Part shown: positions 3,102 through 38,375 of the stretch, piece after piece | Layout: every line of letters begins with the position of its first letter | Position numbering within the stretch: the stretch's first letter is position 1 | From: Patescibacteria group bacterium | GTDB taxonomy: Bacteria; Patescibacteriota; Patescibacteriia; Magasanikbacterales; GWA2-37-8 | Direction of reading: 5' to 3' | Assembly: GCA_004321885.1 (NCBI GenBank) | Contig: SCQK01000008.1 | Span: 1-44,042 of the forward strand | DNA length: 44,042 nucleotides | Position numbers and translations under genes: made by a program | The notes under the pieces: model-generated | Seen by the model: the letters and a program-made list of their open reading frames with translations, nothing else | Told to the model about the DNA's origin: nothing | The model's database searches: none

Positions 3102-3716
3102 ATGAAAGGGATTCTTCCCCGCCCCGGGCAGGTCAGAATGACAATCGGGATGTTGATTTTGCTGATTTTAATCGCGATAGCGAGCGGGGTGTGGTTGTTG
3201 TTGGCAGAACAGAAAGATGCGAATACCCCTCTCTCTGTCTCTCCCCTAAAGGGGGAGAGAAGTTTGGATGCCTCTCCCCCTCCTGACATTCAGGCTCCAC
3301 AGCCCCGACGTAAAGTCGGGGACTATGGAGCCAGCCTCGTTACCCCTCCCCAACCCTCCTCCCGAAACAAGTTCGGGACAAGCTCTTATAAAGTGGAGGG
3401 TACGGCCACGAGCGCGCCGGTCGTTGGCGCGAAAATGCTCATCGGCGGGCAAGAGTTTATTTTTTCCGTCCCCGCGGGCGCCACGGTTTATGACGCCATG
3501 AAACAGCTGGCGGATGAGAAAAAAATATTTTTCAGCGGCAAAGAATACGCGGGCATGGGATTTTTTGCGGAAGAAATAAACGGCTTGCAAAACGGTGACG
3601 GCGGCAAGTATTGGATTTATTATGTCAACGGCCAGCAGGCAAAAGTAGGAGTCTCAAGTTATTTAATTAAATCAAGTGACATAATTTCTTGGGTGTATGA
3701 AAACGAAAAATTTTAG
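3102..3716 (+). CDS. DUF4430-like (transcobalamin-like C-terminal domain) membrane-anchored protein. The start is ambiguous among ATGs at 3102, 3138 and 3150.
   Basis: N-terminal TM (MLILLILIAIASGVWLLLA). The C-terminus (GKYWIYYVNGQQAKVGVSSYLIKSSDIISWVYE) matches the DUF4430 pattern. The linker contains two in-frame palindromic elements. The ATG at 3138 lies inside a P6 element. Confidence 0.55.
   Translation: MKGILPRPGQVRMTIGMLILLILIAIASGVWLLLAEQKDANTPLSVSPLKGERSLDASPPPDIQAPQPRRKVGDYGASLVTPPQPSSRNKFGTSSYKVEGTATSAPVVGAKMLIGGQEFIFSVPAGATVYDAMKQLADEKKIFFSGKEYAGMGFFAEEINGLQNGDGGKYWIYYVNGQQAKVGVSSYLIKSSDIISWVYENEKF
3108..3143. repeat. P6-family element; it overlaps the probable start codon.
   Basis: Compare the copy at 1928-1964. 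Confidence 0.6.
3226..3262. repeat. P1 palindromic element, in-frame inside the CDS (it encodes …PLSVSPLKGERS…).
   Basis: cccctctctctgtctctcccc-taaag-ggggagagaag. Confidence 0.65.
3295..3335. repeat. P2 hairpin element (gctccacagccccgac-gtaaa-gtcggggactatggagc), in-frame inside the CDS (it encodes …APQPRRKVGDYGAS…).
   Basis: A second copy lies at 40567-40606, intergenic. Confidence 0.65.
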
Positions 3717-14888: not shown

Positions 14889-16142
14889 ATGCGCTACTCG
14901 CAACTTTTCGGGAAAACCAGTAAAACTGCGCCGGCCGACGCCGACAGCGTCAATGCCCAGCTCTTAACCAAGGGCGGGTTTATTGCCAAGCAGATGGCCG
15001 GTGTTTATAATTATCTGCCGTTGGGGCTTCGTGTTTTAACAAAAATTCAAAATATCATCCGTGAGGAGATGAACGCAATCGGCGGAAATGAAATACTGAT
15101 GCCCGCGTTGACGTTGGAAGAAAGTTATAAAGAAACCGGAAGAGACGTCGTCTTGGCCGATATACTTTTTAAGAGCGAAGGCCGTGATGGAAGCAAAATG
15201 GTTCTCAATCCAACCTGCGAAGAAGTAATTACGCCGCTGGTAAAAAAATTTGTCTTTTCCCATCGCGATTTGCCGCTGGCGGTCTACCAGATACAAAACA
15301 AGTTTCGCAACGAGCCGCGCGCCAAATCCGGTTTGCTTCGCGGGCGCGAATTCAACATGAAGGATTTGTATTCTTTTCATAAAGACGAAAATGATTTGAA
15401 TGAGTATTATGAAAAAGCCAAGCAAGCGTATTTTAATATCTACAATCGCGTGGGGTTGGGTGATATTACCGTCTTAACTTATGCTTCCGGCGGGGCTTTC
15501 AGCAAATACTCTCATGAGTTTCAAACTTTAACCGATATCGGCGAGGACACGATTTATTTGTGCGAGAAATGCAAAGTGGCCGTAAATAAAGAAATTATTG
15601 ACGAGCAAAAAGCCTGTCCTTCTTGCGGAAATAAAAAATTGATTGAACAAAAAGCTGTTGAAGTCGGTAATATCTTTAAATTGCGGACGAAGTTTTCCGA
15701 TGCTTTTTCATTTTATTATGCTGATGAAAACGGCAAGCAAAAAATAGTTGAAATGGGGACGTATGGTATTGGCCCGTCGCGACTGATGGGCGCGCTGGTG
15801 GAAGTTTTCCACGATGACAAGGGAATAATTTGGCCCGAAGCCGTGGCGCCGTATCAATATCATTTGCTCACTATCGGCAAAGAAGCTGAAGCGGCCAAAG
15901 CCGGCGAGAAGTTATACGCCGATTTGCTGAAAAAAGATACGGAAGTGTTGTATGACGACCGCGACGCTTCGCCCGGCGCCAAACTGGCAGACGCCGACCT
16001 GCTCGGCATCCCCACGCGTTTGGTAATATCAAAAAAGACATTAGAAAAAAATAGTGTGGAAGTGAAGAAAAGAAATGAGAAGGAAGCGAAATTGGTCGCG
16101 CTGTCTGTCATTGCGAGCGAAGCGAAGCAATCCCAAACTTAA
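14889..16142 (+). CDS. proS: Prolyl-tRNA synthetase, compact form of 417 aa with no editing insertion. It carries a Cys4 insert (CEKC…CPSC).
   Basis: N-terminus MRYSQLFGKT…, class II motifs. The last 14 codons are supplied by a P3 repeat element. Confidence 0.85.
   Translation: MRYSQLFGKTSKTAPADADSVNAQLLTKGGFIAKQMAGVYNYLPLGLRVLTKIQNIIREEMNAIGGNEILMPALTLEESYKETGRDVVLADILFKSEGRDGSKMVLNPTCEEVITPLVKKFVFSHRDLPLAVYQIQNKFRNEPRAKSGLLRGREFNMKDLYSFHKDENDLNEYYEKAKQAYFNIYNRVGLGDITVLTYASGGAFSKYSHEFQTLTDIGEDTIYLCEKCKVAVNKEIIDEQKACPSCGNKKLIEQKAVEVGNIFKLRTKFSDAFSFYYADENGKQKIVEMGTYGIGPSRLMGALVEVFHDDKGIIWPEAVAPYQYHLLTIGKEAEAAKAGEKLYADLLKKDTEVLYDDRDASPGAKLADADLLGIPTRLVISKKTLEKNSVEVKKRNEKEAKLVALSVIASEAKQSQT
16098..16137. 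repeat. P3-family half element (gtcattgcgagcgaagcgaagcaatccc) forming the 3' end of proS.
   Basis: It matches the left arms at 17556, 17650, 18522, 21402 and 40884. Confidence 0.65.
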
Positions 16143-17553: not shown

Positions 17554-17555
17554 CT

Positions 17556-17642
17556 GTCATTGCGAGCGAGTCGCAGACGAGCGCGGCAATCCCATTCGTG
17601 TTTGGGGTTGCTTCACTCCACTTCGTTCCGTTCGCAATGACA
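17556..17642. repeat. Complete P3 MITE-like palindrome (gtcattgcgag…cgcggcaatccc / ggggttgcttc…cgcaatgac).
   Basis: Solo copy with both arms present. Confidence 0.65.
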
Positions 17643-17649
17643 ATCGTCT

Positions 17650-18056
17650 GTCATTGCGAGGTCGCCTGCGGCGACCGAAGCAATCCCATACAATCAAGTA
17701 TGCCGAAACGCAAGCAGTATTATGTTTACATAATGACCAACAAGAATAATACTGTTTTGTATACCGGTGTTACCAACAGTTTAGTCCGTAGAGCCTACGA
17801 ACACAAAAGCAAGTTCAGTTTTTATGAAAGTTTTACAAAAAAATACAATATCAATAAACTCGTCTATTACGAATGTTTTGATAATGTGAATAACGCGATT
17901 ACCAGAGAAAAACAGATAAAAGCCGGTTCGCGAAAAAAGAAAATAGATCTAATCAATAAAATGAATCCTATTTGGCGGGATTTGTATGGAGAACTTTACC
18001 CTGATTAGGGATGGGATTGCTTCGTCGGTCGCCTGCGGCGACCTCCTCGCAATGAC
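17650..18056 (+). mobile_element. GIY-YIG nuclease gene enclosed by P3-type terminal inverted repeats: IR-L 17650-17687, CDS 17700-18008, IR-R 18013-18056.
   Basis: IR-L is gtcattgcgag-gtcgcctgcggcgac-cgaagcaatccc. IR-R is gggattgcttcg…gtcgcctgcggcgacc…ctcgcaatgac, its near-exact reverse complement, including the shared core gtcgcctgcggcgac. Confidence 0.5.
17700..18008 (+). CDS. Small GIY-YIG nuclease-superfamily protein (YhbQ/UPF0213-like, about 102 aa).
   Basis: YYVYIMTNKNNTVLYTGVTNSLVRRAYEH, the GIY-YIG core. The ORF-track start at 17598 lies inside repeat DNA; the ATG at 17700 is taken as the start. Confidence 0.7.
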   Translation: MPKRKQYYVYIMTNKNNTVLYTGVTNSLVRRAYEHKSKFSFYESFTKKYNINKLVYYECFDNVNNAITREKQIKAGSRKKKIDLINKMNPIWRDLYGELYPD

Positions 18057-18521: not shown

Positions 18522-18608
18522 GTCATTGCGAGGAGGTCTGCAGACCGACGCGGCAATCCCAATGTTGAAAGGGATTGCTTCGGTCGCCACAGGCGACCTC
18601 GCAATGAC
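18522..18608. repeat. P3 MITE-like palindrome, an 'empty' copy with no cargo.
   Basis: It lies exactly between the trpS stop and the start of the 18106..18510 gene. Confidence 0.65.
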
Positions 18609-19664: not shown

Positions 19665-20135
19665 TTAGTAATGGTATTTACGTCCGCCGTTTATCATCAG
19701 CGCGCGGTAAATTTGCTCCAGCAAAAACACCCGGCACATTTGGTGCGTGAAAGTCAGGGGGGACAAAGAAAGCTCTAAATCGGCTTTTTGCCGGACGGAA
19801 GAATGTAGGCCGAGCGGTCCGCCGATAATAAAGGTGATATTTTTTCGCGTCTGTGTCTGGGAAAGCTGTTTTGCCAATTCGGTGGAAGAAAATTGTTTGC
19901 CGTGTTCGTCCAGGGCGATGATAAAATCATCCGTTTTCGGCAGGGCGTTTAAAATTTTGTCCGCTTCTTTTTGTTTTATCGTTTCCGGGCTGTCTTTTTC
20001 GCCAAAGGCCTCTTCTTTCAGTTCGCGGATTTCAATTTTCGTAAAAGGTTTCAACCGTTTTAAATATTCGGCTTCGGCCTCGCGCCAATACGATTCTTTC
20101 AGCTTGCCCAGGCAGATGATGTTAGTTTTTGGCAT
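19665..20135 (-). CDS. rlmH: 23S rRNA m3Psi1915 methyltransferase RlmH (SPOUT family).
   Basis: Collinear with RlmH (…IIGGPLGL…LTFTHQMCRVFLLEQIYRA…). Confidence 0.8.
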   Translation of the reverse strand: MPKTNIICLGKLKESYWREAEAEYLKRLKPFTKIEIRELKEEAFGEKDSPETIKQKEADKILNALPKTDDFIIALDEHGKQFSSTELAKQLSQTQTRKNITFIIGGPLGLHSSVRQKADLELSLSPLTFTHQMCRVFLLEQIYRALMINGGRKYHY

Positions 20136-21345
20136 ACGATTGCCATTCTTTTTTTAATTTCAAAAATTTGTCTTCGGCGATGGCCGCGCGGATTTGTTTC
20201 ATCAAATCCAAAAAGAAATGCAGATTGTGAATGGTGGCCAGGCGCATGGCCGAGAGCTCCCCGGCGTTAAAAAGATGGCGCAAGTAGGCGCGGGAATAAT
20301 GTTGGCAGGTGTGACAGGCGCAGTTTTTGTCTATCGGCTTGGCGTCGCTAGCGAACCGCGAGTTGGTGATGTTTATGCGATACCCCTCCCCAGCCCTCCC
20401 CTTATTAAGGGGAGGGAGAAAGAGCATGCCGTGGCGGGCCAAGCGGGTGGGGGCCACGCAGTCAAACATGTCTATGCCGCGTTCCACCACTTCAAAAATG
20501 TCCAAAGGCGACAGCCCCAGACCCATGCTGTAGTGGGGCTTGTCGGGCGGAAGCAGGGGGTAGACCCAATCCAAAATTTCTTTGGTCGCGGACATGTTGT
20601 AGCCGATAGATTCGCCGCCGACGGCGATGCCGTCAAAATCCATGGCGGAAATATGGCGCGCTGATTCTTCACGCAAGTCGCGGTGATTGGAGCCCTGGAC
20701 GATGCCGAAGAGATGTTGCCGATACCCCTCCCTCACCCTCCCCTTATAAAGGGGAGGGGATGATAGATGATATTCCAAACATCTTTTCGCCCATCTGTGC
20801 GTGCGTTCCATTGCTTCGCGCGCATACTTAGCATCAACATTGTCCGGCGCGCATTCGTCAAAGGCCATGATAATGTCCGCGTCCAGTTTGTGCTGGATTT
20901 TTATTGACGACTCGGGCGTGAAGCGATGCGTGGAGCCGTCTATGTGGCTTTTGAAGGTGACACCGTCCTTGTCTATTTTCGCCAAACGCTCTTTGCGAAA
21001 CTCCACCCCTTGTCCCTCCCCTAATAGGGGAGGAATTTGTTTGCCCAAACTGAAAACCTGGAATCCGCCGCTGTCGGTAAGCATTGGTCTGTCCCAATTC
21101 ATGAATTTGTGCAAGCCGCCCAGTTTGGCGACAATATCTTCGCCCGGGCGTAGATGCAAATGGTAAGTGTTTCCTAAAATTATTTGCGCGTTCAAATCGC
21201 GCAAATCAAAAGAATCCAGGGATTTTACGGTCGCTTGCGTGCCCACGGGCATGAAAGACGGTGTTTCAATGTCGCCGTGCTCGGTATGAATTACGCCCGT
21301 CCGCGCTCGGCTGTTTTTGTCTTGATGAAACGTTTCAAAAAACAT
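20122..21345 (-). CDS. tgt: Queuine tRNA-ribosyltransferase (tRNA-guanine transglycosylase). It carries three in-frame palindromic-element insertions.
   Basis: Full-length Tgt similarity including the zinc site CxCxxC…H (CACHTCQHYSRAYLRHL). The insertions encode [25 protein letters not shown] and PPLLGEGQG. Confidence 0.9.
   Translation of the reverse strand: MFFETFHQDKNSRARTGVIHTEHGDIETPSFMPVGTQATVKSLDSFDLRDLNAQIILGNTYHLHLRPGEDIVAKLGGLHKFMNWDRPMLTDSGGFQVFSLGKQIPPLLGEGQGVEFRKERLAKIDKDGVTFKSHIDGSTHRFTPESSIKIQHKLDADIIMAFDECAPDNVDAKYAREAMERTHRWAKRCLEYHLSSPPLYKGRVREGYRQHLFGIVQGSNHRDLREESARHISAMDFDGIAVGGESIGYNMSATKEILDWVYPLLPPDKPHYSMGLGLSPLDIFEVVERGIDMFDCVAPTRLARHGMLFLPPLNKGRAGEGYRINITNSRFASDAKPIDKNCACHTCQHYSRAYLRHLFNAGELSAMRLATIHNLHFFLDLMKQIRAAIAEDKFLKLKKEWQSYAKN
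20384..20421. repeat. P1 palindromic element, in-frame in tgt.
   Basis: cccctccccagccctcccc-ttattaa-ggggagggagaaag. Confidence 0.75.
20725..20770. repeat. P1 palindromic element, in-frame in tgt.
   Basis: cccctccctcaccctcccc-ttataaa-ggggagggga. Confidence 0.75.
21003..21034. repeat. P1 palindromic element, in-frame in tgt.
   Basis: ccctcccc-taata-ggggagg. Confidence 0.7.
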
Positions 21346-21401
21346 ACTTTAACTAAATGGTAAGGTATTTTGCAGGTTATGGCAAGACATGGTATGCTTT
21401 T

Positions 21402-21489
21402 GTCATTGCGAGGACCCGCCCGGGGCGGGGACGAAGCAATCCCATTCATAAGCGCGAGAGATTGCTTCGGCCTACGGCCTCGCAATGAC
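21402..21489. repeat. P3 MITE-like palindrome in the tgt/uvrD divergent intergenic region.
   Basis: gtcattgcgag…cgaagcaatccc … gattgcttcgg…ctcgcaatgac. Confidence 0.65.
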
Positions 21490-21494
21490 AACCT

Positions 21495-23711
21495 GTGTAT
21501 ATGATTGATTTTTCCAGCGACCTCAATGACGAACAATTAAATGTCGTTCTTAATGGCGACGGCCCGTGCTTGGTGTTGGCCGGAGCCGGCAGCGGCAAGA
21601 CGCGCGCCATTGTTTACCGTGCGGCTTATCTTTTGGAACAGGGCGTGAAGCCGGAAAATATTTTGCTCGTGACTTTTACCAACAAGGCGGCAGGGGAGAT
21701 GAAAGAAAGGGTGCGCGGACTCACCGGCAACGAGGGCTTGCCCTGGGCCGGTACTTTTCACAGCATCGGCAACAGAATACTGCGCCACCACGCCATGGCT
21801 TTGGGTTACATGTCCAATTTTACGATTTTGGATTCCGATGACAGCGAGTCATTGATAAAAATTTGCGCGAAAGACTCCCACCCCCCCTCAATCCCCCCCT
21901 CGGGCAGGGGGGGAGGATGGACCGGTGGTAAATTTCCCTCGGCCGGTAATTTGCAGGCGATAATCAGCTTTTCTCGCAACGCGGAAATGGCGCTTGCTGA
22001 AGTGTTGGAAACGCGCTGGCCCCAGTATGAGATGTGGGCCGACCCCCTGGCGGAAATCGCCAAGGAATACGAAAAAAGAAAATTACAGGCCAACGCCATG
22101 GATTTTGACGACTTGCTGGTGAACTTTTCGCGTTTGCTAAACGACCCGAAGATTTTGAAAAAATATTCCGGGCAGTTTCAATATATTCTGGTTGACGAGT
22201 ATCAGGATACGAATAAAATTCAGGCGTCCATCGTGAAAAAATTGGCCACCGAGCACGGAAATATTTTGGTCGTTGGCGACGACGCGCAAAGCATTTATTC
22301 TTTCCGCGCGGCCGACATAGAAAACATCTTGCGTTTTGAAAAAGATTTTCCCAAAGCGAAAATTTTCAAGCTGGAAACCAATTACCGCAGTAGCCAGGAA
22401 ATTTTGGACGTGGCCAACAACGTCATCGCCAACAATCCAAAACAGATAAAAAAGGAATTACATACCCCTCCCCAACCCTCCCCTTATAAAGGGGAGGGAG
22501 ATAGCGTTTCCTCCCCCTTTATAAGGGGGAGGTTAGGTGGGGGTGTCAAGCCCGAACTGCATCCGAAAATTGACCAAAGCGACGAGGCAAATTTCGTGGC
22601 CGAGAAAATCGCTTCGCTGATTCGCGGCGGAGTGGAACCGACCGAGCTGGCCGTGCTTTTCCGCGCGGCGCATCACAGCCAGCAATTGGAGCTTGAACTA
22701 ATGCGCATAGGCATTGATTACGATTATCGCGGCGGCCTGCGCTTTTTTGAACGCTCGCACGTGAAAGACGCCCTGGCCTACTTGCGCATACTGAACAATC
22801 TGGCCGACACGACCGCCTGGCTGCGCGTGCTTTTGTTTGAAGACGGCATCGGTCCGGTGGCGGCCGGCAAAATCGTGGATTATATAAGGAAGGTGGAAAA
22901 CGTGGAAGAAGTGGCCAAGGCCGGAGAGGTTTTGGGCGACAAAGCGCAGACGGGCTGGAATAATTTTTTACAAATTTGGAACAGCTTGCTGAATGTGGGG
23001 CCGGGCAGTCCGGCGCAACTGGTGGAGGCGATTTTGGCTTCGCCTTACCGCGATCGGCTGGAAGACGATTTTGGCAACGGCAACCAGCGGGCCGAAGATT
23101 TGAAACAGCTGGCGATTTTCGCGCGCAAATACGAAAAGCTGGATGACTTTTTATCCGAGGCGGCTTTGCAAGAGGCGTTTAGCATGCAGAGGAAAAAAGA
23201 AAGCGCCAGCAAAGCGCACGAGGGAAAAATTGTTCTTTCTACTATACATCAGGCCAAGGGGCTGGAGTGGTCCGGCGTGTTTGTGATTAATTTGCTGGAC
23301 GGGCAGTTTCCCAACGAACGCGCTTTGCGGGAAAACGGCGGGCTGGAAGAAGAGCGGCGCTTGTTTTATGTGGCGGTTACCCGCGCCAAAAAATATTTGT
23401 ATTTGTCGTATCCGCTGGCCGGCCCGGCCCGAGGCGGACAAAGCGGGGGCTGGGGAGACAGCGCGTCCGCGCCGAGCTCGTTTTTGGGTGAAATCAGTCC
23501 GGATTTGCTGGAAGATAGTTCGCTATTGCTTAAGCCGAGTTCGGTTTTTGATTTCTCTTCCCTTGCTAAGGGGAGAGATAGTGAGGGGTCGATCACATAC
23601 GTGGACGACCCGGATGCCGAGACCCGCCCCCACACCAAAGATTTTGGTGTGGGGGCCCGTCCCTTCCGCTTCAAACCCGGCAGTTTTTTGCGCGACGTGG
23701 GAGATTTATAA
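21495..23711 (+). CDS. uvrD: UvrD/PcrA/Rep-family ATP-dependent DNA helicase. It carries four in-frame palindromic-element insertions.
   Basis: Walker A GAGSGKT and helicase motifs across the length. The start is a GTG at 21495 or an ATG at 21501. Confidence 0.9.
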   Translation: MYMIDFSSDLNDEQLNVVLNGDGPCLVLAGAGSGKTRAIVYRAAYLLEQGVKPENILLVTFTNKAAGEMKERVRGLTGNEGLPWAGTFHSIGNRILRHHAMALGYMSNFTILDSDDSESLIKICAKDSHPPSIPPSGRGGGWTGGKFPSAGNLQAIISFSRNAEMALAEVLETRWPQYEMWADPLAEIAKEYEKRKLQANAMDFDDLLVNFSRLLNDPKILKKYSGQFQYILVDEYQDTNKIQASIVKKLATEHGNILVVGDDAQSIYSFRAADIENILRFEKDFPKAKIFKLETNYRSSQEILDVANNVIANNPKQIKKELHTPPQPSPYKGEGDSVSSPFIRGRLGGGVKPELHPKIDQSDEANFVAEKIASLIRGGVEPTELAVLFRAAHHSQQLELELMRIGIDYDYRGGLRFFERSHVKDALAYLRILNNLADTTAWLRVLLFEDGIGPVAAGKIVDYIRKVENVEEVAKAGEVLGDKAQTGWNNFLQIWNSLLNVGPGSPAQLVEAILASPYRDRLEDDFGNGNQRAEDLKQLAIFARKYEKLDDFLSEAALQEAFSMQRKKESASKAHEGKIVLSTIHQAKGLEWSGVFVINLLDGQFPNERALRENGGLEEERRLFYVAVTRAKKYLYLSYPLAGPARGGQSGGWGDSASAPSSFLGEISPDLLEDSSLLLKPSSVFDFSSLAKGRDSEGSITYVDDPDAETRPHTKDFGVGARPFRFKPGSFLRDVGDL
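21877..21920. repeat. P1-variant palindrome, in-frame in uvrD (it encodes SHPPSIPPSGRGGGW).
   Basis: cccaccccccctcaatcccccc-tcgggca-gggggggagg. Confidence 0.65.
22465..22545. repeat. Two tandem P1 elements in opposite orientation, in-frame in uvrD (they encode PSPYKGEGDSVSSPFIRGRLGGGV).
   Basis: Copy a at 22465-22502 and copy b at 22509-22545. Confidence 0.75.
23555..23590. repeat. P1 element (CTCTC variant), in-frame near the uvrD C-terminus (it encodes SLAKGRDSEGS).
   Basis: ctcttccc-ttgctaa-ggggagag…gagggg. Confidence 0.65.
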
Positions 23712-27496: not shown

Positions 27497-28289
27497 GCGG
27501 CAAAGAATTCCAAATATATTCAAATAACGAGCGTTGCATCTGCGCTATATTTTTATCTTCAATGATGACTCCGATTTGTTGTTCCTCGGCAAGCGTGGAA
27601 TAACTGATGGTGTCGTTGTAAATTTGCATCCCAGTTTTGAAAGGATTTAACGCTTGCGGGATCAAACGCACTTCAAGCAAACGTGAACTCGGCGGCAAAT
27701 TTTTATATCTTTCCCTCGTAAATGGAGTATCAAGAGAGATTTGTTTTTTGTGAATTCCCAGTTCAATTCTTTTTTCAACATACTTTTTGTTCATTTCGCC
27801 TCCGTATTTAACCAAAGCTTCCATATCAATAAAAGTGTAAATTTCGCCTTTGGCTTTTAAAGAATCAAAAGTAACTTCTTTTATTCCTTCGGGACCTTCG
27901 TAAAATTTCACCCCGGGTTTGTGGTGGGCCAGGCGGTAGCTGGATTTAAGGTCGCCCAGCACGTCGCCGAGCATGGCTTTTTGGCGCTGGATTTCCTTTT
28001 CCTGGTCGGCCACAAAGTCCTCTAACTTTTCGGGCGGGGCGGCGTTGTACATGGTTTTCTTGCTTTTATCTCCTGCGCCGGGCTTTTTTTCGGTGGCCAA
28101 ATCAGACGCGATAAGGTTGTCCAGCACATAGTAGAGCATGGTGCGGGAAAAGTTGGTTTGCTGGCGCAGCTGGGGGATAGTGGCGTCGGGCGTTTTGAGC
28201 AAAACCTCATATAGCAAGGCCTCGTTTTCGCCCAGGCCCAGCTCTTTCAGGGTATTCTGGATAGTGGTATTTTGGTTAGCTTTCTGCAT
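27447..28289 (-). CDS. TrmB-family transcriptional regulator (N-terminal wHTH plus a C-terminal effector domain).
   Basis: …LGLGENEALLYEVLLKTPDATIPQLRQQTNFSRTMLYYVLDNL…. Convergent 50-nt overlap with the 786-aa gene. Confidence 0.6.
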   Translation of the reverse strand: MQKANQNTTIQNTLKELGLGENEALLYEVLLKTPDATIPQLRQQTNFSRTMLYYVLDNLIASDLATEKKPGAGDKSKKTMYNAAPPEKLEDFVADQEKEIQRQKAMLGDVLGDLKSSYRLAHHKPGVKFYEGPEGIKEVTFDSLKAKGEIYTFIDMEALVKYGGEMNKKYVEKRIELGIHKKQISLDTPFTRERYKNLPPSSRLLEVRLIPQALNPFKTGMQIYNDTISYSTLAEEQQIGVIIEDKNIAQMQRSLFEYIWNSLPPMRPSPAAPAKVPEPS

Positions 28290-28444
28290 ATTATTGACAT
28301 TTTTTTAGCTGTATAAAGCCATTATAGCACACTTTTAGATATTTGTCAAGAGCAGATTGACATATTTAGGCATTTAGAATAGAAATTGGCTTGGCTAAAA
28401 TTAGCCAAAAAAGAAAAAATAAGGCGGAAAGTGAGGCGTACCCC

Positions 28445-28473
28445 TTGACATATTTTAAGATATATGCTATAAT
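28445..28473 (+). promoter_or_regulatory. Near-consensus sigma70 promoter: TTGACA, a 17-nt spacer, TATAAT.
   Basis: TTGACA at 28445-28450 and TATAAT at 28468-28473. A weaker TTGACA-type promoter lies at 28357-28385. Confidence 0.6.
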
Positions 28474-28479
28474 GCTCTG

Positions 28480-28691
28480 TTAAGCTGGAAAATCTGAAAA
28501 AAGGGCTGAATAAGCACAAAGGGCTTAACAAACAGGGTGTCATTCTGAACGAAGTGAAGAATCCCTGTCGCACATTTCAATACAAATGGCGGATGACAGA
28601 ACCTGTGGAGGAGAGACCACGGGCGGACACAAAGCCAATTTTCTAAAAGCAATAGGGCCTCTCTCCAATTTGGATAGAGGCCCTTTTCGTT
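28480..28691 (+). ncRNA. Candidate small RNA of about 210 nt, bounded by the consensus promoter and an intrinsic terminator. Identity unknown.
   Basis: No ORF. It contains a P6-like internal hairpin (cagggtgtcattctgaacgaagtgaagaatccctg). Confidence 0.3.
28655..28691 (+). terminator. Intrinsic terminator gggcctctctcc-aatttg-gatagaggccc followed by ttttcgtt.
   Basis: An 11-12-bp stem with one mismatch, followed by a T-tract. Confidence 0.55.
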
Positions 28692-28734
28692 AGCGATGAG
28701 GCGAGCCGCTATAGCGGCAAGCCCATCCGGCTAA

Positions 28735-28752
28735 CGATCCGCCTTTGGCGGA
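28735..28752. repeat. P4 mini-hairpin (gATCCGCC-TTTGG-CGGAT).
   Basis: Further copies at 32303-32319 and 37217-37233. Confidence 0.5.
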
Positions 28753-29100
28753 TGTTGCTTACGCGGATGAGGGAGAGAACTTATTCATTTCCTCATCCGT
28801 TGAAGCAATGTGAACAACAAAGTTTCAACGCCACTTGTCGTGGATTGTACATTAAAATGCTCCTCCGCGAGTCCGGGCGACCGGTCCGCGGGTTGCGAAA
28901 AGCATCGTCTGGTTATTCGTATGAGTAGGAGAGAGTCCTACCGATAACAAGATGATTTCTCTGTTTGCTCCCGCCCAAGGCGGGAGACCGGGCGGAGAGT
29001 GTCCCACGATGCGGCGAAAGCCGAGTCCGGGCGCTCGCGGTCCGGCTATATGCCTACAGAGACATATAGTACCGAGTGCGCCCTAAATCCGATCACAACT

Positions 29101-29125
29101 GTCATCCTGAATTTATTTCAGGATC
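29101..29125. repeat. P5 hairpin (GTCATCCTGAA…TTCAGGATC).
   Basis: Second copy at 37111-37135. Confidence 0.5.
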
Positions 29126-29166
29126 TCCGTTCGGTCGGAGGCGGGGCAGACGATCCCATATCATTT

Positions 29167-29203
29167 CCTCCCCCTTAATAAGGGGGAGGTTAGGAGGGGG
29201 TAA
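29167..29203. repeat. P1 palindromic element.
   Basis: cctccccc-ttaataa-gggggaggttaggaggggg. Confidence 0.65.
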
Positions 29204-29320
29204 ATTGGATCGCCTGCCTCGCCGGAATCCTTGGAGAGAAAAGCGAGTCGGCGCTATTGAGAGAGTAGGCCTGGAGCACTTTGACAATTTATCCACTAAA
29301 GCTGGCAACTGTCGTTTTTT

Positions 29321-29354
29321 CTCCCCTCAATAAGGGGAGGACGAAGGAGGGGTG
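29321..29354. repeat. P1 palindromic element.
   Basis: ctcccctc-aataa-ggggaggacgaaggagggg. Confidence 0.65.
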
Positions 29355-29515
29355 TTGTCATTTTTAGTGGCGCCACCATGGTGGTGGCGAAAGAAAGGAG
29401 GTGCGCCATGAAGCGCACCTATCCGAGTGGGTTTCTTTAGATAAAAAAAAGAAACCCCGCGTTGTGGCTGGCATCCACTTTAATCACTGCCCGCGGCAGA
29501 CGCAGTTCTGTCGCG

Positions 29516-29575
29516 CCAACCAAACCTCGGCGGTTCACCAAGTAGCCGGGGAAGTCCTCGCGTCAGCGAGGGCGA
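29516..29575 (+). repeat. Direct repeat DR1 (…ttcaccaagtagccggggaagtcctcgcg-tcag-cgagggcga).
   Basis: Nearly identical to DR2 at 30041-30097; the two are about 520 bp apart. Confidence 0.6.
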
Positions 29576-30040
29576 GCGTGGCTCCGACGCCACTCGGACA
29601 ACGGTGCTGGCCGGAACAAACCAGCCGCGAGCCGCGATGCTAATATCTCCTATAAGTCGGCTGACATCCGACGAAGTGGAGAGAATGAGGCATCGCGAGG
29701 GGCGCGATAGACCCCGAAGGTGCCACACCATGGAGATGTGGTGTGGTGAGGAGACTCGTCTCCTCGGGTTCGCCCGAGGAGACGAGGAGGCCGTGCTTGT
29801 GGCGGCCCTGGCTGTCTTCGCGTTCGCGGAGGCGGCGGGGCTGCCGCGACCCAGCTTGAAGCTGGGTTGGATGGGGTGGAAGTATCTCACCCTGTCCAGC
29901 ACGCAGGAGGTGCAGCGACAGCTGCAGCTCCTGCGGGAGCACGGCCCCGCGGGTTACTGGGTGGCAGCCACCCGGTAGCCGGGCGGTTGGTGGACCGCTG
30001 TCAAAAACCACCCGTCTAAGCGCTCAATCGCTTAGACGCC

Positions 30041-30097
30041 CACCAAACCCCGGCAATTCACCAAGTAGCCGGGGAAGTCCTCGCGACGCGAGGGCGA
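30041..30097 (+). repeat. Direct repeat DR2.
   Basis: See DR1. Confidence 0.6.
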
Positions 30098-30238
30098 TAG
30101 TCCGGTCATCCGACCGGACAAGCGCTCGGAGGCGAACAAGCACATGTTCGCCTTTCCGATTACTCTTTTCACCGCAATAGTGCGGTGGAAGGAGTTGAGG
30201 AAAACAAAAAACAGCTTGCAAGCGCGAGCTGCCTTTAG

Positions 30239-30314
30239 TGGTGGACCCGACGGGAGTTGAACCCGTTCCTCTACTTGTCAATGGTAGCATGCTAACCGTT
30301 TACACCACGGGCCC
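30239..30314 (-). tRNA. tRNA of 76 nt with an encoded CCA. The anticodon loop is AUUGACA, so the apparent anticodon is UGA (nominally Ser), but it has a short type-I variable loop. The isotype is uncertain.
   Basis: Minus-strand cloverleaf. Acceptor GGGCCCG/CGGGTCC, D-arm GTGT-AAACGGTTA-GCAT, anticodon arm CTACC-ATTGACA-AGTAG, T-arm ACGGG-TTCAACT-CCCGT, discriminator A, then CCA. A TATAAT about 20 nt upstream of the 5' end. Confidence 0.7.
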
Positions 30315-30550
30315 CAGAGTCCACCGGGTCTAATTATAACACAAAAGTCCCTTCCTAAGAAGGGACTCATGTGTGACAAGTAGATGTAAACCCACGATGT
30401 ATAGGTTCATGCTACCAAAATTACATTATCAAGAAAGTAGTATTTTGTCAAGATTAAATTATCCACAGGCGATTTCCACTTCAAGCGTCACGCTTTATTG
30501 GCGTTATGCTTGAGGCGGGAATGGTTCCCGCCCTATGAAAGGAGGGCGCC

Positions 30551-31411
30551 ATGAAGAGCGCCCAGAAGAAGGGGCCGCCGAGCCCCTCGTCTCGGCACAA
30601 CGACCTCGCCTCCCAACACAGGGGGGTGAAGAGCGGAGGAGCCCTCCCCTCCGGCGACGCCAAGTCGCCGAAGAGGAGGCCCTCCAAGATCAACAGCCGC
30701 CAGTTGGAGGGAATGGAATTTCAGTATCTGCTCCTTGACGGGCTTTGGGTCAAATGCAAGCAGTTTGGCTTAAGCGAGCGCAACAATACGGTTCTGCTCT
30801 GCGCCCTGGGCATCACCAAAGAGGGCAAAAGAGAGATCGTTGGCTTTATGACGAGTGACGCCGAGGACGCCGAAAGCTGGGGGCAGATGCTCGCCAATTT
30901 GAAAGAGCGCGGATTGAATAAGGACAAACTCGAGCTGGTCATTGCCGACGACAACGCCGGACTGGTTTCAGCCGTAGGCCACTATCTGCCGGGGGTTAAA
31001 TTACAAAAGTCCGAATGAAGTTATTAAAGAAGTGGTGCTGTGAAAACTTGACTTTTTAGCCACAAAAAGCAAATTGCCGCCGATGTCAAAATTATCTATC
31101 AGTCCAACAGTAGAGAAGAGGCCACCGAGCGGATGAAACAATTCGCCAGGAAGTGGTACGTGGCCGAAGAGAAAGCCGTGAACAGTTTGCGCTTCAATTT
31201 TGAAAAAACATTGACCTACTTTGATTGGCCGCCCGACACCTGGAAAAAAATCAGGACCACCAACATTTTGGAAAGAGAGTTCCGGGAAGTCCGGCGTCGC
31301 ATCAAGGTGTTTGATAATTCGTTCAACGACCAAAACAGCTTACTCCGATACGGCAATTCCATTTTTGACAATCTTAATAATCATTACCCTGCAAAAAGTT
31401 ATACACACTAA
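30551..31411 (+). pseudogene. Degraded IS256-family (Mutator-like) transposase. The N-terminal third is missing and there is a frameshift or deletion between about 31018 and 31090.
   Basis: Fragment 1 is …FQYLLLDGLWVKCK…REIVGFMTSDAEDAESWGQMLANLKERGL…LVIADDNAGLVSAVGHYLPGVKLQ. Fragment 2, in a different frame, is …KQFARKWY…FDWPPDTWKKIRTTNILEREFREVRRRIKVF…. Confidence 0.65.
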
Positions 31412-36207: not shown

Positions 36208-36340
36208 AATGGCGGTATGTCCGCCCGCGTTAGGCCGCAGTGGCGCGTAAGAAATATCTGCGACACACTCGGTGTTTGAGGAACGGCTTGCACAAGCGCT
36301 CCTCTTCACCCGCATAGCGACAAAGGAGATTTCTCGCTTA

Positions 36341-36390
36341 CCCCTCACCAACTCTCCCCTTATAAAGGGGAGAGAGAATGAGGGTAAAGG
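36341..36390. repeat. P1 palindromic element at the right edge of the GC-rich island.
   Basis: cccctcaccaactctcccc-ttataaa-ggggagagagaatgaggg. Confidence 0.6.
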
Positions 36391-37001: not shown

Positions 37002-37245
37002 ATATTTGTCAATACTTAACAAAGATATAAACATGGCAGTTCTTGACACTTTTTCCCCCTTTCTATATACTATTGCCAAGAACGTTACCCCGAGTAATCG
37101 GGGCACCCGAGATCCTGAAACAAGTTCAGGATGACAGGGAACTCGTGGCTGAGCTTCATCGTTCAGCTTTTTGTTAACGACAGAAATTTAAGAATTAAAT
37201 TTCTTGTCAGTTAACAATCCGCCTTTGGCGGATATTCATTATTTA

Positions 37246-37280
37246 CCCCTCCCTGCCCTCCCCTTATTAAGGGGCGGGGA
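37246..37280. repeat. P1 palindromic element immediately upstream of rpsL. Its right arm may serve as the SD.
   Basis: cccctccctgccctcccc-ttattaa-ggggcgggg; the ATG follows 13 nt later. Confidence 0.65.
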
Positions 37281-37292
37281 AAATTAAGAATT

Positions 37293-37721: not shown

Positions 37722-37725
37722 TTTA

Positions 37726-37829
37726 CCCCTCCCTAACCCTCCCCTTATATGCGAAATGAGAGAGGAAACAAAAGCAATGCTTTTGTTTCCGAACGAATGA
37801 GCATATATCCAGGATATAAAGGGGGAGGG
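37726..37829. repeat. P1 element split by a 64-bp secondary insertion (37751-37814) that carries its own hairpin (ggaaacaaaagcaatgcttttgtttcc).
   Basis: The left arm is cccctccctaaccctcccc-ttata (ends 37750). The right arm is tataaa-gggggaggg (37815-37829). Confidence 0.55.
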
Positions 37830-37844
37830 ACTAACGAAACTATT

Positions 37845-38375
37845 ATGCGTGGAAGCAAAAAACAGGAAAAGCGGCCAATCGCGGCCGACCCAAAATATGG
37901 TTCGGTCCAACTGGCCAAGTTTATCAATTATGTGATGGAAAGGGGCAAGAAAACCGTGGCCCGAGCAATCGTTTACGGCGCTTTGGAAAACATCGCCGAA
38001 TCCGCCTCTGCCAAAGGAGTAGATGCGTCCTCTGGCGCCAAAGGCGGACAGGGCGGCAAAAAAGACGCGCTCAAAGTTTTTGAGGAAGCCGTGCGCAACG
38101 TGGCCCCCCAGGTAGAGGTGCGCTCGCGGCGCGTGGGCGGAGCCAACTATCAGGTGCCCATGCCTGTCAGCTCCTCGCGCCAGCACGCCCTTACTTTCCG
38201 CTGGATTATAGACGCGGCGCGCAATAAAAAAGGCCTGCCCATGGCCAAAAAGCTAGCCCAGGTTTTGCTTGACGCCAGCAACAACACCGGCGACGCCATG
38301 AAAAAGCGCGACGACGTGCATAGAATGGCCGAAGCCAACAAGGCCTTCGCGCACTTTGCCCGCTTTGCTAAATAA
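37845..38375 (+). CDS. rpsG: 30S ribosomal protein S7, with an insertion of about 14 aa (…[14 protein letters not shown]…).
   Basis: S7 similarity (…[16 protein letters not shown]…[15 protein letters not shown]). The start is at the ATG at 37845. Confidence 0.85.

What the first reader, a model, noticed from the sequence alone, without database searches (positions are those of the whole stretch)
21495..23711. UvrD/PcrA helicase carries four more in-frame copies, including a head-to-head tandem pair
P1 elements at 21877-21920, 22465-22502, 22509-22545 and 23555-23590 are all read through in-frame on the plus strand. The tandem pair produces PSPYKGEGDSVSSPFIRGRLGGGV. Copies are translated in both orientations: tgt reads them on the minus strand as PPLxKGRxxEGY, and uvrD reads them on the plus strand as SPYKGEGD / FIRGRLGGG. 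The element is therefore 'open' in several frames. Its TTATAA core would give a TAA stop in one frame, and that frame is never the one used. This implies selection, or insertion bias, for frames that are harmless to the host protein.
Basis: seen in the sequence. Interest (0 to 1): 0.8.

Follow-up and report, generated by a model that had tools for sequence, protein, structure and literature searches.

The report
Tiny palindromic transposons translated inside a helicase
A DNA-repair helicase gene of an ultra-small (Patescibacteria) bacterium carries five tiny palindromic mobile DNA elements that are read through in frame as extra surface loops; this kind of event is known from Rickettsia but was not found described for these bacteria, and here it is unusually dense and involves much smaller elements.

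Summary
ORF 21501-23711 is an intact UvrD/PcrA helicase. It holds four P1 units at the stated places, all read through in frame.

- At each P1 site, 24-119 orthologs (60-68% identical) lack the extra residues.
- The sites lie between helicase motifs, in loops or the C-terminal tail that AlphaFold models with low confidence.
- The 'head-to-head pair' (22464-22544, 81 nt, 27 codons) is the canonical full-length form of P1. The same convergent doublet dominates in cyanobacteria, and the 35-nt P1 sequence recurs in Gammaproteobacteria and several Patescibacteria classes.
- I found a fifth in-frame insert of another family, 'P5' (core 23627-23655). It is flanked by a 4-bp target duplication (CCCG), so it adds 29+4 = 33 nt, or 11 codons.
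- P5 is widespread in metagenomes. 65 of 122 copies have 4-bp duplications. It sits in frame in PolA, LigA, RecJ and PNPase genes, with an empty site in 83-91% identical LigA relatives.
- P5 shows a strong frame bias towards PHTKxFGVG.

The 'TAA frame never used' argument is circular for P1, because intact ORFs cannot contain stops. The P5 data do support selection on frame.

Closest analogues are Rickettsia palindromic elements, REPIN and MITE. The transposase is unknown.

The parts
21501..23711 (+). uvrD/pcrA-type SF1 helicase CDS. ATG at 21501; the mechanical ORF starts at GTG 21495. 736 aa, about 50-60 aa longer than most orthologs.
   Evidence: Pfam; PDB sequence matches; fold match; 100% identical NCBI protein P0001; all helicase motif blocks present.
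21879..21918 (+). P1 unit no. 1, a divergent copy with loop CTCGGGCAG instead of TTATAA. Read as HPPSIPPSGRGGGW (aa 127-140), in the loop between helices 112-126 and 148-160 (domain 1B region).
   Evidence: nhmmer E 9e-6. About 10 extra residues against orthologs. Gap against PcrA ~133-141. pLDDT<50 at 132-141.
22464..22544 (.). Full-length P1 doublet of 81 nt (27 codons). Left half 22464-22499 (ACCCC-first orientation), spacer 22500-22508, inverted right half 22509-22544. Read as TPPQPSPYKGEGDSVSSPFIRGRLGGG (aa 322-348), between the NYRS block (294-297) and the LFRAAHHSQ block (386-394).
   Evidence: Inverted repeat I1, 36-nt arms, 81% complementary. nhmmer 5e-13 and 5e-10. 21 extra alignment columns against all orthologs. 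Folds at -24.8 kcal/mol, z -4.0. Same convergent doublet architecture in 34 of 46 adjacent +- pairs in other genomes. The halves are 93% and 91% identical to copies at 20380-20422 and 29158-29201.
23551..23590 (-). P1 unit no. 4 (half element, inverted orientation). Read as DFSSLAKGRDSEGS (aa 684-697), in the C-terminal tail after motif VI.
   Evidence: nhmmer 4e-10. 8-10 extra residues against orthologs. pLDDT<50 at 677-736. Lies beyond the part alignable to PcrA.
23623..23659 (.). Fifth in-frame insert, a 'P5' micro-element. The 29-nt perfect-stem palindrome core is 23627-23655 (CCCCCACACCAAAGATTTTGGTGTGGGGG). It is flanked by 4-bp direct repeats CCCG at 23623-23626 and 23656-23659. It adds 33 nt (11 codons, PHTKDFGVGAR).
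   Evidence: Inverted repeat I10. Hairpin -18.5 kcal/mol, z -6.6. More than 120 metagenome contigs carry the same core. 65 of 122 copies have exact 4-bp flanking repeats, against 17.7 in shuffled controls. Deleting 23627-23659 restores ...TRPFRFKPG, like the orthologs.
20381..20419 (+). P1 copy inside tgt (gene on the minus strand), read as [13 protein letters not shown].
   Evidence: Absent from Z. mobilis TGT and from the L110 ortholog.
20723..20760 (+). P1 copy inside tgt, read as [13 protein letters not shown].
21003..21036 (+). Degenerate P1 copy inside tgt, read as IPPLLGEGQG.
   Evidence: nhmmer E 0.04. 18-aa gap against solved TGT. Another repeat family occupies the same loop in L109.
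3224..3382 (+). Two P1-related copies (3224-3261 and 3340-3382) in the linker of a DUF4430 protein, read as TPLSVSPLKGER and TPPQPSSRNKFG.
36339..36389 (+). Intergenic P1 copy with both outer arms around a single hairpin ('collapsed doublet'). Other non-coding copies are at 1968-2003, 2800-2838 (upstream of the real Band7 start), 29163-29202, 29316-29353, 37244-37282, 37724-37831 (split) and 40794-40832.

Best explanation
The helicase gene has been colonised at least four times by very small, non-autonomous palindromic mobile elements of two families.

P1 is a roughly 36-nt unit: a 12-nt C-rich outer arm plus a 9-10-bp G/C hairpin with a TTATAA loop. Its complete form is an ~81-nt convergent inverted doublet. 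The gene holds one full doublet and two half or diverged units. P5 is a 29-nt hairpin that duplicates 4 bp of target on insertion, so it adds 33 nt.

The inserts remain in the mRNA and are translated. They survive for three reasons:
- Their net length is a multiple of three.
- C-runs and G-runs encode Pro and Gly in every frame, and only the loop can create a stop. Most frames are therefore open and encode flexible Pro/Gly/Ser/Arg-rich loops.
- Purifying selection keeps only copies that landed in permissive surface loops or the disordered tail, between the helicase motifs.

What is shown:
- Membership in a repeat family, and in-frame read-through.
- Absence of the inserts from orthologs, and their loop location.
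- A 4-bp target duplication for P5, with filled and empty sites for P5 in a related phylum member.

What is inferred:
- That the inserts are translated rather than removed.
- That they are neutral or slightly deleterious passengers.
- That a trans-acting transposase, not present in the window, moves them.
For: Repeat family and significance.

In-frame reading and the frame table.

Inserts absent from relatives: 24 aligned and 119 surveyed orthologs lack residues at exactly these sites, while all motif blocks are invariant.

Location: the inserts correspond to gaps against PcrA at ~133-141 and ~314-325 and lie beyond residue 650. In the AF2 model they fall in coil with pLDDT<50 (132-141, 294-348, 677-736), while the core matches UvrD/PcrA.

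Same behaviour in the neighbouring gene: tgt has 3 copies and is 407 aa, against 375 aa for the ortholog in L110 and 457 aa in L109.

Mobility of P5:
- Core found in more than 120 metagenome contigs.
- 4-bp direct repeats in 65 of 122 copies, and 90 of 122 allowing one mismatch. Shuffled control mean is 17.7 (maximum 28), and shifted registers give 2-3.
- CCCG/CCCG flanks the copy in uvrD.
- Filled site in Giovannonibacteria LigA, against a clean 11-aa gap in eight relatives of 83-91% identity.
- In-frame hosts include PolA, PolX, PNPase, Mur ligase, LigA, RecJ and ComEC.
- Frame bias towards PHTKxFGVG.

P1 as a doublet element: convergent pairs with gaps under 40 nt make up 34 of 46 adjacent +- pairs, against 4 of 23 -+ pairs and 0 ++ or -- pairs. 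22 of 32 doublets are flanked TA...TA. Each half of the uvrD doublet has a 91-93% identical copy elsewhere in the window. An independent P1-type doublet sits at another site of the uvrD ortholog in L109. P1 is in frame in UvrA, UvrB-like and other genes of other phyla.
Against: - There is no transcript, proteome or read-level evidence. Everything comes from one MAG contig.
- No close strain exists (next relative 63-68% identical), so no empty site can be shown for the P1 inserts. The doublet replaces about 6 ancestral residues rather than being a pure insertion.
- P1 has no unambiguous target duplication. TA...TA could simply be part of the inverted repeat.
- No transposase with matching ends was found, either in the window or between distant inverted P1 pairs.
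- Half elements in genes are not explained by a doublet-only replicative unit.
- Neutrality of the inserts is assumed, not tested.
Confidence: 0.8

Rival explanations
1. The inserts are assembly or sequencing artefacts: repeat-induced chimeras that are not present in the real uvrD molecules.
For: The contig is from a single metagenome-assembled genome, and P0001 is a singleton cluster seen on one contig. Short G/C hairpin repeats can confuse assemblers.
Against: - All five inserts keep the frame and lack stops, and the flanks are collinear with orthologs.
- P5 carries a 4-bp target duplication.
- The same kinds of in-frame insert occur in independent assemblies from other projects: L109, L037, L010 and the LigA cluster of 9 members on 2 contigs.
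- A chimera would not add 3n nucleotides five times over.
Confidence: 0.03
2. The elements are removed after transcription or translation (intron-like or intein-like), so the helicase protein is unaltered.
For: Each element forms a stable hairpin that could be recognised by a nuclease or ligase. There is no expression data.
Against: - If the elements were removed, nothing would constrain frame or stops. Yet all 9 CDS copies of P1 in the window and the P5 copy preserve the frame and are open. Non-coding copies show stops at the expected rate.
- P5 shows a peptide-level frame bias in verified genes.
- There are no ribozyme or intron matches in Rfam.
- 29-81 nt is far too small for inteins or known introns.
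Confidence: 0.04
3. The inserts are host-beneficial. They could be domesticated linkers or loops that tune helicase interactions, or mRNA hairpins that regulate translation or stability, maintained by positive selection rather than tolerated.
For: - Recurrent use of the same loops by different families in orthologs. Examples are the hot spot after core columns 434-442, and the TGT loop hit in both the window and L109.
- P5 frame bias.
- Very high density in DNA-repair and replication genes.
Against: - The inserts are lineage-specific and differ in family and site between orthologs.
- The same sequences are common in intergenic DNA and across phyla.
- They are predicted to be disordered.
- Hot spots and frame bias are equally what purifying selection on random insertions would produce.
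Confidence: 0.1
4. P1 copies spread by recombination, gene conversion or template switching between hairpins rather than by transposition. The half units would then be products of such events.
For: - No clear target duplication for P1.
- About 18 nt of ancestral sequence was replaced at the doublet site.
- The outer arm nearly repeats the left hairpin arm, allowing alternative pairings.
- Tandem P1-like triplet in one TGT loop of L109.
Against: - The conserved doublet, with defined ends, sits in unrelated flanks in many genomes.
- TA...TA flanks occur in 22 of 32 doublets.
- The sister family P5 clearly transposes.
Confidence: 0.12
5. uvrD is a decaying pseudogene that merely still looks open.
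For: Five foreign inserts in one gene. Patescibacteria have reduced genomes.
Against: - There is full-length colinearity with 119 orthologs.
- Every invariant motif residue is retained (Walker A, DEYQD, motif III, V, VI).
- There are no frameshifts or stops over 736 codons.
- Synteny with tgt, the SPOUT methyltransferase and the aminoacyl-tRNA synthetase is conserved.
Confidence: 0.03

Closest known systems
Rickettsia palindromic elements (RPE; Ogata et al. 2000 Science 290:347; 2002 Genome Res 12:808; as summarised in PMC10969869 and PMC3184786)
   Same: Both are selfish palindromic repeats inserted in frame into unrelated housekeeping genes of a reduced-genome bacterium. Both are translated as extra peptide segments at structurally permissive sites, and both also occur in non-coding DNA.
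   Different: RPEs are about 100-150 bp and confined to Rickettsia. P1 units are ~36 nt (doublet 81 nt) and P5 is 29 nt. The sequences are unrelated. The host is a Patescibacterium. P1 recurs with a near-identical sequence in Cyanobacteria, Gammaproteobacteria and several CPR classes. P5 has a demonstrable 4-bp target duplication.
REP / REPIN elements mobilised by RAYT transposases (Bertels & Rainey 2011, PMC3116915)
   Same: The palindromic unit is short (~35 nt). The predominant form is an inverted doublet with a short spacer that can fold into a long hairpin. Singlets look like decayed or collapsed doublets. All of this holds for P1.
   Different: REPs are by definition extragenic, whereas 9 of 17 P1 copies in this window lie in coding sequence. 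The GTAG/CGTC 5' tag typical of REP superfamilies (PMC3733652) is absent. No RAYT gene was seen, though only 44 kb of the genome is available. The TA...TA flanks of P1 are not a REPIN feature.
[quoted passage not shown]
   Same: Terminal inverted repeats, no coding capacity of their own, target-site duplication (P5: 4 bp; P1: possibly TA), stable hairpins, and occasional in-frame fusion with host ORFs.
   Different: P5 at 29 bp, and even the P1 doublet at 81 bp, are at or below the usual MITE size range (about 100-400 bp in the tables cited). No parent insertion sequence with matching ends was identified.
[quoted passage not shown] 2008, Genome Res 18:1484)
   Same: From the title, its citation in PMC3116915 and my own recollection: mobile palindromic repeats of roughly 21-27 nt in heterocystous cyanobacteria, some nested within each other. 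P1 is abundant in exactly these genomes, and a nested insertion is seen at 37724-37831.
   Different: The paper could not be read here, so I could not check whether P1 equals one of the SDR families. In-frame residence in CPR genes is not, to my knowledge, part of that description.

Membership tests
UvrD/PcrA/Rep SF1A helicase (host gene) | UvrD N-terminal and C-terminal helicase domains with Walker A, DEYQD (motif II), motif III, V and VI | tested here: met
   Pfam PF00580 2e-81 and PF13361 1.7e-56. Motif blocks located at aa 27-34, 231-236, 258-271, 580-590 and 624-630, and invariant among 25 orthologs.
UvrD/PcrA/Rep SF1A helicase (host gene) | Four-subdomain (1A/1B/2A/2B) fold | tested here: met
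   The AF2 model matches 2is4, 4c2t and 3pjr with TM(target) 0.76-0.78 and E about 1e-38.
Rickettsia palindromic elements (RPE) | In-frame insertion of a palindromic repeat into unrelated protein-coding genes | tested here: met
   uvrD, tgt and a DUF4430 gene in the window. PolA, LigA and others for P5.
Rickettsia palindromic elements (RPE) | Element length about 100-150 bp, belonging to RPE sequence families found in Rickettsia | tested here: not met
   P1 is 36-81 nt and P5 is 29 nt. The host is Patescibacteria. Sizes of RPE are as listed in PMC3184786 and PMC10969869.
REP / REPIN | Short imperfect palindrome repeated many times, organised mainly as inverted doublets with a short spacer | tested here: met
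   34 of 46 adjacent +- P1 pairs have gaps under 40 nt, while other orientations are rare. The doublet in uvrD has 36-nt arms, 81% complementary.
REP / REPIN | Extragenic location | tested here: not met
   9 of 17 P1 copies in the window are inside coding sequence. In other phyla only about 3% are.
REP / REPIN | Conserved GTAG or CGTC tetranucleotide at one end | tested here: not met
   P1 ends read (T)ACCCC...GGGGT(A), and no GTAG or CGTC tag is present. The criterion is from PMC3733652 (abstract).
REP / REPIN | A cognate RAYT (IS200/IS605-like Y1 transposase) gene in the genome, flanked by the REPs | not testable with these tools
   Only 44 kb of this genome is available. The only transposase-like ORF is an IS256/Mutator-family fragment at 30551-31018.
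MITE | Terminal inverted repeats and no transposase gene | tested here: met
   P1 doublet with ~35-nt inverted ends. P5 is a 13-bp inverted repeat with a 3-nt loop.
MITE | Target-site duplication | tested here: met
   For P5: 4 bp in 65 of 122 copies, against 17.7 in the shuffled control, and CCCG in uvrD. For P1 the result is inconclusive: TA...TA in 22 of 32 doublets, which cannot be told apart from a repeat extension.
MITE | A related autonomous insertion sequence sharing the ends | tested here: inconclusive
   Distant inverted P1 pairs (0.5-3 kb apart) in fetched loci enclose ordinary genes, not transposases. No genome-wide search was possible.
Cyanobacterial small dispersed repeats (SDR) | Identity of P1 or P5 with a published SDR consensus | not tested
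   The paper is not held. Sequence-string literature searches found nothing.

The most novel reading that the evidence does not exclude
P1 and P5 may represent a class of 'coding-compatible' micro-transposons of 29-81 bp. On this reading, their design (G/C-run stems, insertion increments of 3n, few or no stops in any frame, Pro/Gly-rich products) lets them live inside genes of gene-dense Patescibacteria. They would be a major, so far undescribed source of lineage-specific loops in essential CPR proteins. At least one of them (P1) would be shared almost unchanged across bacterial phyla by an unknown, broadly distributed mobilising enzyme.
Probability: 0.35. Interest if true: 0.8.

Novelty: new variant of a known kind. 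Interest (0 to 1): 0.62.

Why it matters
In-frame 'protein-coding palindromes' have been treated as a Rickettsia peculiarity. Four things seen here go beyond that picture:

- One CPR helicase carries five such inserts from two families, and its neighbour tgt carries three.
- Orthologous helicases across Magasanikbacteria-like genomes carry other repeat-derived inserts at more than 25 sites.
- A 29-bp element with a 4-bp target duplication sits in frame in PolA, LigA, RecJ, PNPase and other genes in groundwater metagenomes.
- That element shows a clear reading-frame bias.

If this is general, three consequences follow:

- It would explain part of the unexplained length variation and 'disordered insertions' in CPR proteins.
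- It gives a natural map of the permissive loops of essential enzymes.
- It warns annotators and structure predictors about repeat-derived segments.

It also opens a tractable question: which enzyme moves 29-81-bp hairpins, and how does one 35-nt sequence come to be shared by Cyanobacteria, Vibrionaceae and CPR?

Tried and rejected
- **Peptide searches for other P1 hosts failed.** A 52-aa synthetic concatenate of the four open frames found no candidate. A 35-aa window segment against 1.84 billion representatives returned one weak hit. Short low-complexity queries do not work with these tools.
- **Phage carriage of P1.** There were 0 exact matches in 2.9 million viral contigs for the 35-nt pattern and 2 for the hairpin alone. 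Phages are therefore not an obvious vector.
- **Autonomous parent element.** Distant inverted P1 pairs enclose normal genes: an ABC ATPase with a permease, and a histidine kinase.
- **Known RNA families.** Rfam at gathering threshold finds only tRNA-Ser in the window. The permissive search of 28250-30600 gives only sub-threshold noise.
- **Band7 (2007-2927) and orf150 (40643-41095) as further coding hosts: rejected.** The Band7 copy lies upstream of the start inferred from the L110 ortholog. orf150 is an ORF made of repeat translations with no Pfam hit.
- **Search for a near-identical strain with empty P1 sites.** It was not attempted by DNA scan, because P0001 is a singleton at 90% and the next relative is 63-68% identical.
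- **Literature.** Nothing was found on such elements in CPR or on the sequences themselves. Elhai 2008 and Ogata 2002 are not held.
- **Aliivibrio P1 arrays as integron attC sites.** I considered this and left it untested.
Full report
**1. What the window is, and the host gene**

The 44,042-bp window equals a contig of a Patescibacteria (Magasanikbacteria-like) metagenome-assembled genome. The ORF product is 100% identical to an NCBI 'ATP-dependent helicase [Patescibacteria group bacterium]' of 736 aa that was seen on one 44,042-bp contig.

ORF 21495(GTG)/21501(ATG)-23711 is a UvrD/PcrA-type SF1 helicase:
- Pfam gives UvrD-helicase 2e-81 and UvrD_C 1.7e-56.
- It aligns to PcrA 1pjr at 9e-101.
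- An AlphaFold2 model built on 25 orthologs has mean pLDDT 71. It superposes on UvrD/PcrA-DNA complexes with TM(target) 0.76-0.78.
- All canonical blocks are present and invariant among orthologs: Walker A aa 27-34, TFTNKAA 58-64, DEYQD 231-236, motif III 258-271, NYRS 294-297, LFRAAHHSQ 386-394, motif V 580-590 and motif VI 624-630.

Typical orthologs are 670-700 aa, so this protein is about 50-60 aa longer.

**2.

The element has the consensus (T)ACCCCTCCCnnnCCCTCCCCTTATAAAGGGGAGGGA. It is a 12-nt C-rich outer arm followed by a 9-10-bp hairpin with a TTATAA-type loop. The core motif occurs 8 times against 0.06 expected.

A profile search finds 12 clear and about 5 degenerate copies in the window. 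The four in uvrD are:

| Position | Orientation and form | Peptide | Residues |
|---|---|---|---|
| 21879-21918 | forward, divergent loop CTCGGGCAG | HPPSIPPSGRGGGW | 127-140 |
| 22464-22499 | forward, left half of pair | part of TPPQPSPYKGEGDSVSSPFIRGRLGGG | 322-348 |
| 22509-22544 | inverted, right half of pair | part of the same peptide | 322-348 |
| 23551-23590 | inverted | DFSSLAKGRDSEGS | 684-697 |

All are read through in the helicase frame.

**3. They are insertions, and where they sit**

In an alignment with 24 orthologs (60-68% identical), and in a survey of 119, P0001 alone has extra residues at exactly these places. It has about 10 extra at site 1, 21 columns at the doublet and 8-10 at site 4.

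Against the solved PcrA the inserts appear as follows:
- Gaps at PcrA ~133-141. This is the domain 1B region; the domain borders are from my recollection of the PcrA/UvrD literature.
- Gaps at ~314-325, in the first half of domain 2A.
- Material beyond residue 650, the C-terminal tail that is not ordered or alignable.

In the model the inserts are coil with pLDDT<50 (132-141, 294-348, 677-736), lying between well-predicted secondary-structure elements. None interrupts a motif block.

**4. The neighbouring gene behaves the same way**

tgt (20122-21345, minus strand; Pfam TGT 4e-146) reads three copies as [23 protein letters not shown] and [13 protein letters not shown]. Each coincides with a gap against solved TGT structures and against the ortholog of the closest UvrD relative's genome. 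That ortholog (L110) is 375 aa, with no P1 detected in 22 kb.

In another relative (L109) TGT is 457 aa. It carries three tandem P1-like units in the same loop as the window's third copy. It also carries an insert of another repeat family in the same loop as the window's first copy.

In total, 9 of 17 P1 copies in the window lie in real coding sequence: uvrD 4, tgt 3, and a DUF4430 protein linker 2. The other 8 are non-coding. I removed two apparent hosts:
- The Band7 copy lies upstream of the start inferred from an ortholog.
- orf150 is a spurious ORF made of repeat translations.

**5.

For 11 well-preserved copies:

| Frame | Typical peptide | Copies with a stop |
|---|---|---|
| F1 | TPPQPSPYKGEG | 5 of 11 |
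| F2 | [11 protein letters not shown] | 0 of 11 |
| F3 | PSPTLPL*RGG | 5 of 11 |
| R1 | [12 protein letters not shown] | 2 of 11 |
| R2 | PSPL*GEGWGG | 10 of 11 |
| R3 | PPLYKGRVGEG | 1 of 11 |

The frames used in genes here are F1 (uvrD doublet left half, DUF4430), R1 (doublet right half), R3 (uvrD no. 4, tgt twice) and F3 in the divergent copy, which has no TAA. Open-frame products are 47% Pro+Gly+Ser, because C-runs give Pro and G-runs give Gly in any frame.

About 8 events cannot show a preference among open frames. F2 is unused here but is used in other genomes.

**6. The 'head-to-head pair' is the complete element**

Most are Nostocales and Oscillatoriales. Others are Aliivibrio and Cellvibrio isolates and Ignavibacteria and Eisenbacteria MAGs. 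Patescibacteria hits come from several classes: Nomura-, Pacei-, Buchanan- and Saccharibacteria.

In these loci the predominant arrangement is a convergent inverted doublet of 80-86 nt: ACCCCTCCC..hairpin..spacer..hairpin..GGGGGGT. Among adjacent copies, 34 of 46 +- pairs have gaps under 40 nt. Only 4 of 23 -+ pairs do, and no ++ or -- pairs.

The uvrD pair has the same architecture and is 81 nt, or 27 codons. It has 36-nt arms that are 81% complementary, and it folds at -24.8 kcal/mol (z -4.0). Its halves are 93% and 91% identical to copies at 20380-20422 and 29158-29201, which argues for recent spread.

Taken as CCCC...GGGG, 22 of 32 doublets are flanked TA...TA. This could be a TA target duplication of the IS630/Tc1 type, or just an extension of the inverted repeat; I cannot tell which.

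An independent P1-type doublet (YKGEEEVKRPLLAKERNEV) sits at a different site in the uvrD orthologs P0078 and P0114, and I confirmed it at the DNA level in L109.

P1 is also read in frame in a UvrB-like gene (L010), in UvrA (L037, the same peptide TPPQPSPYKGEG), and in two large ORFs that were not scanned against Pfam. From their sequences these look like a membrane glycosyltransferase (L039) and a CHAT-domain protein (L046). Only about 3% of copies outside this window are in long ORFs, against 9 of 17 here.

**7. A fifth in-frame insert, with a target duplication**

The C-terminal tail contains a perfect-stem palindrome, CCCCCACACCAAAGATTTTGGTGTGGGGG (23627-23655; -18.5 kcal/mol, z -6.6). It is unique in the window.

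- Of 122 copies, 65 are flanked by an exact 4-bp direct repeat, and 90 allowing one mismatch.
- Shuffled partners give a mean of 17.7 (maximum 28), and shifted registers give 2-3.
- The repeats are mostly TAAA or TTTA.
- In uvrD the repeat is CCCG (23623-23626 and 23656-23659).
- An insertion therefore adds 29+4 = 33 nt, or 11 codons. Removing 23627-23659 restores ...TRPFRFKPGSFL, colinear with orthologs.

About a quarter of P5 copies lie inside ORFs with at least 60 codons on each side. Ten hosts checked by Pfam are real genes: PolA, PolX, PNPase, a Mur ligase, LigA, RecJ, ComEC, YjeF/Nnr, a nucleotidyltransferase-kinase and an RRXRR-HNH protein.

For LigA the host is Candidatus Giovannonibacteria. 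Eight relatives at 83-91% identity have a clean 11-residue gap, HF[YPHTKSFGVGV]YAEPKFDG, four residues before the KxDG adenylation motif. This is a filled/empty-site comparison.

All three frames of P5 are open, yet about 17 independent in-ORF copies use PHTKxFGVG, as does uvrD. About 4-5 use PPHQxxWCGG and 3 use PTPKxLVWG. Among the Pfam-verified hosts the count is 9 of 10. Target-site constraints should if anything disfavour the NTT-TAC register, so selection on the encoded peptide is the more likely cause. This is inference.

**8. Broader context in the orthogroup**

Across 120 UvrD orthologs there are inserts of at least 8 aa at more than 25 sites. Many are recognisable translations of other dispersed palindromic repeats: CHPERSEGS..., VIPAxAGIQ...WIPNQVGNDK, HPRESGDP...SRLRGND, REPSGISEGIPPL..GRND...ILRFAQND and TRAAGAAQYG. 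There are hot spots after core columns 74-80 and 434-442. The phenomenon is therefore general in this clade and not a peculiarity of one gene.

**9. Mechanism and rivals**

- **Best-supported reading.** Repeated invasion by tiny non-autonomous transposable hairpins, followed by filtering for 3n length, open frames and permissive loops. Translation is inferred from the universal preservation of frame and from the P5 frame bias.
- **Artefact.** This is unlikely: 3n lengths five times over, a target duplication, and independent assemblies showing the same kind of insert.
- **Removal at RNA or protein level.** This is disfavoured by the same frame constraints and by the absence of ribozyme or intron signals.
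- **Adaptive domestication.** This cannot be excluded, but it is not needed to explain the data.
- **Recombinational spread of P1.** This remains possible, because P1 lacks an unambiguous duplication and the doublet replaces about 6 ancestral residues.
- **The mobilising enzyme is unknown.** The window holds only an IS256-type fragment, and distant P1 pairs enclose ordinary genes.

**10. Comparison with what is known**

The behaviour is that of Rickettsia palindromic elements (PMC10969869; PMC3184786). The architecture of P1 is REPIN-like (PMC3116915), while the P5 features are MITE-like.

Membership fails for RPE on size, taxon and sequence. It fails for REP on extragenic location and on the GTAG/CGTC tag. 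P5 is smaller than listed MITEs.

Cyanobacterial 'small dispersed repeats' may overlap with P1, but that paper could not be read.

Full-text searches found nothing on such elements in CPR or on the sequences themselves. The library is incomplete, so prior description cannot be excluded.

**11. Verdict**

I rate this a new variant of a known kind: RPE-like in-frame palindromes, but made of REP- or micro-MITE-sized elements, in Patescibacteria, at high density, with one family shared across phyla and another adding exactly 11 codons per insertion. Interest 0.62.

Noticed in passing
window 37724-37831: Between rpsL and rpsG, a P1 unit is split in its loop. The left part ACCCCTCCCTAACCCTCCCCTTATA (37724-37749) and the right part TATAAAGGGGGAGGGA (37815-37831) are separated by a ~65-nt insert that contains its own hairpin (GGAAACAAAAGCAATGCTTTTGTTTCC). 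TATA is present on both sides, so this looks like a nested insertion with a 4-bp duplication.
   Followed up: partly
window 21395-21492; also 16099-16142, 17554-17700, 18540-18581, 40876-40960: A second palindromic repeat family (TGTCATTGCGAG...CGAAGCAATCCC...GGGATTGCTTCG...CTCGCAATGACA) fills the tgt-uvrD intergenic space directly upstream of the uvrD start. It recurs at several gene ends. Its translations (..SLRGAKRRSNP.., ..CFASLAMT..) make up spurious ORFs such as 40643-41095.
   Followed up: partly
window 1925-1965 and 3104-3144: A third repeat family (GAAAGGGATTCCTCCCCGCCCTGGGCGGGTCGGAATGACAA), with two copies 90% identical to each other.
   Followed up: no
window 1-1340: An array of ~207-nt tandem repeats (4-5 units, 62-100% identical) in an AT-rich stretch (37% GC) at the left end of the contig. 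It was not characterised.
   Followed up: no
window 38000-38060 (rpsG, ribosomal protein S7): S7 matches the Pfam profile over 162 residues for 145 profile positions. The extra segment ..[19 protein letters not shown].. is encoded by DNA with weak P1-like hairpin remnants (CCTCTGCCAAAGGAG / CCTCTGGCGCCAAAGGCGG). This may be an old repeat-derived insert in a ribosomal protein.
   Followed up: partly
window 28300-30550: About 2 kb has no convincing ORF or Rfam match. It holds two P1 copies (29163-29202, 29316-29353), a 49-nt direct repeat (29514-29562 and 30037-30085, 92%) and tRNA-Ser (30239-30314, minus strand), followed by an IS256/Mutator-family transposase fragment (30551-31018). It may be a degraded integration site.
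   Followed up: partly
L003, L013, L017, L023, L029, L040, L053, L058, L077, L091, L105 (Aliivibrio): In Aliivibrio the two P1 halves face away from each other (..GGGAGGGGGT - ~58-nt conserved spacer - ACCCCTCCC..), giving a ~128-nt unit. The unit recurs several times along 40 kb of one contig with conserved flanks. This is reminiscent of cassette-array recombination sites, but I did not test that.
   Followed up: partly
L208 4923-6932 (Candidatus Giovannonibacteria LigA) and proteins P0122-P0132: A P5 insertion (YPHTKSFGVGV) lies only four residues upstream of the catalytic KxDG adenylation motif of NAD-dependent DNA ligase. It is absent from eight relatives of 83-91% identity.
   Followed up: yes
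UvrD orthologs P0002-P0120 (alignment): There are recurrent insertion hot spots (after core columns 74-80, 434-442, 468-470 and 660), hit by different repeat families in different lineages. P0032 carries a TRAAGAAQY-type insert at the same site as the window's P1 no. 1. P0046 and P0047 carry one at the site of the window's P5.
   Followed up: partly
L109 7886-9259: The TGT of a related Patescibacterium (732-kb JGI contig) is 457 aa. It has three tandem P1-like units (PLAPPFKKEG / LPPLAKRGTEGE / SPPARGGDEKGGG) in one loop and a VIPAKMGIR..SRLHENDN insert in another. These are the same two loops that carry P1 copies in the window's tgt.
   Followed up: partly
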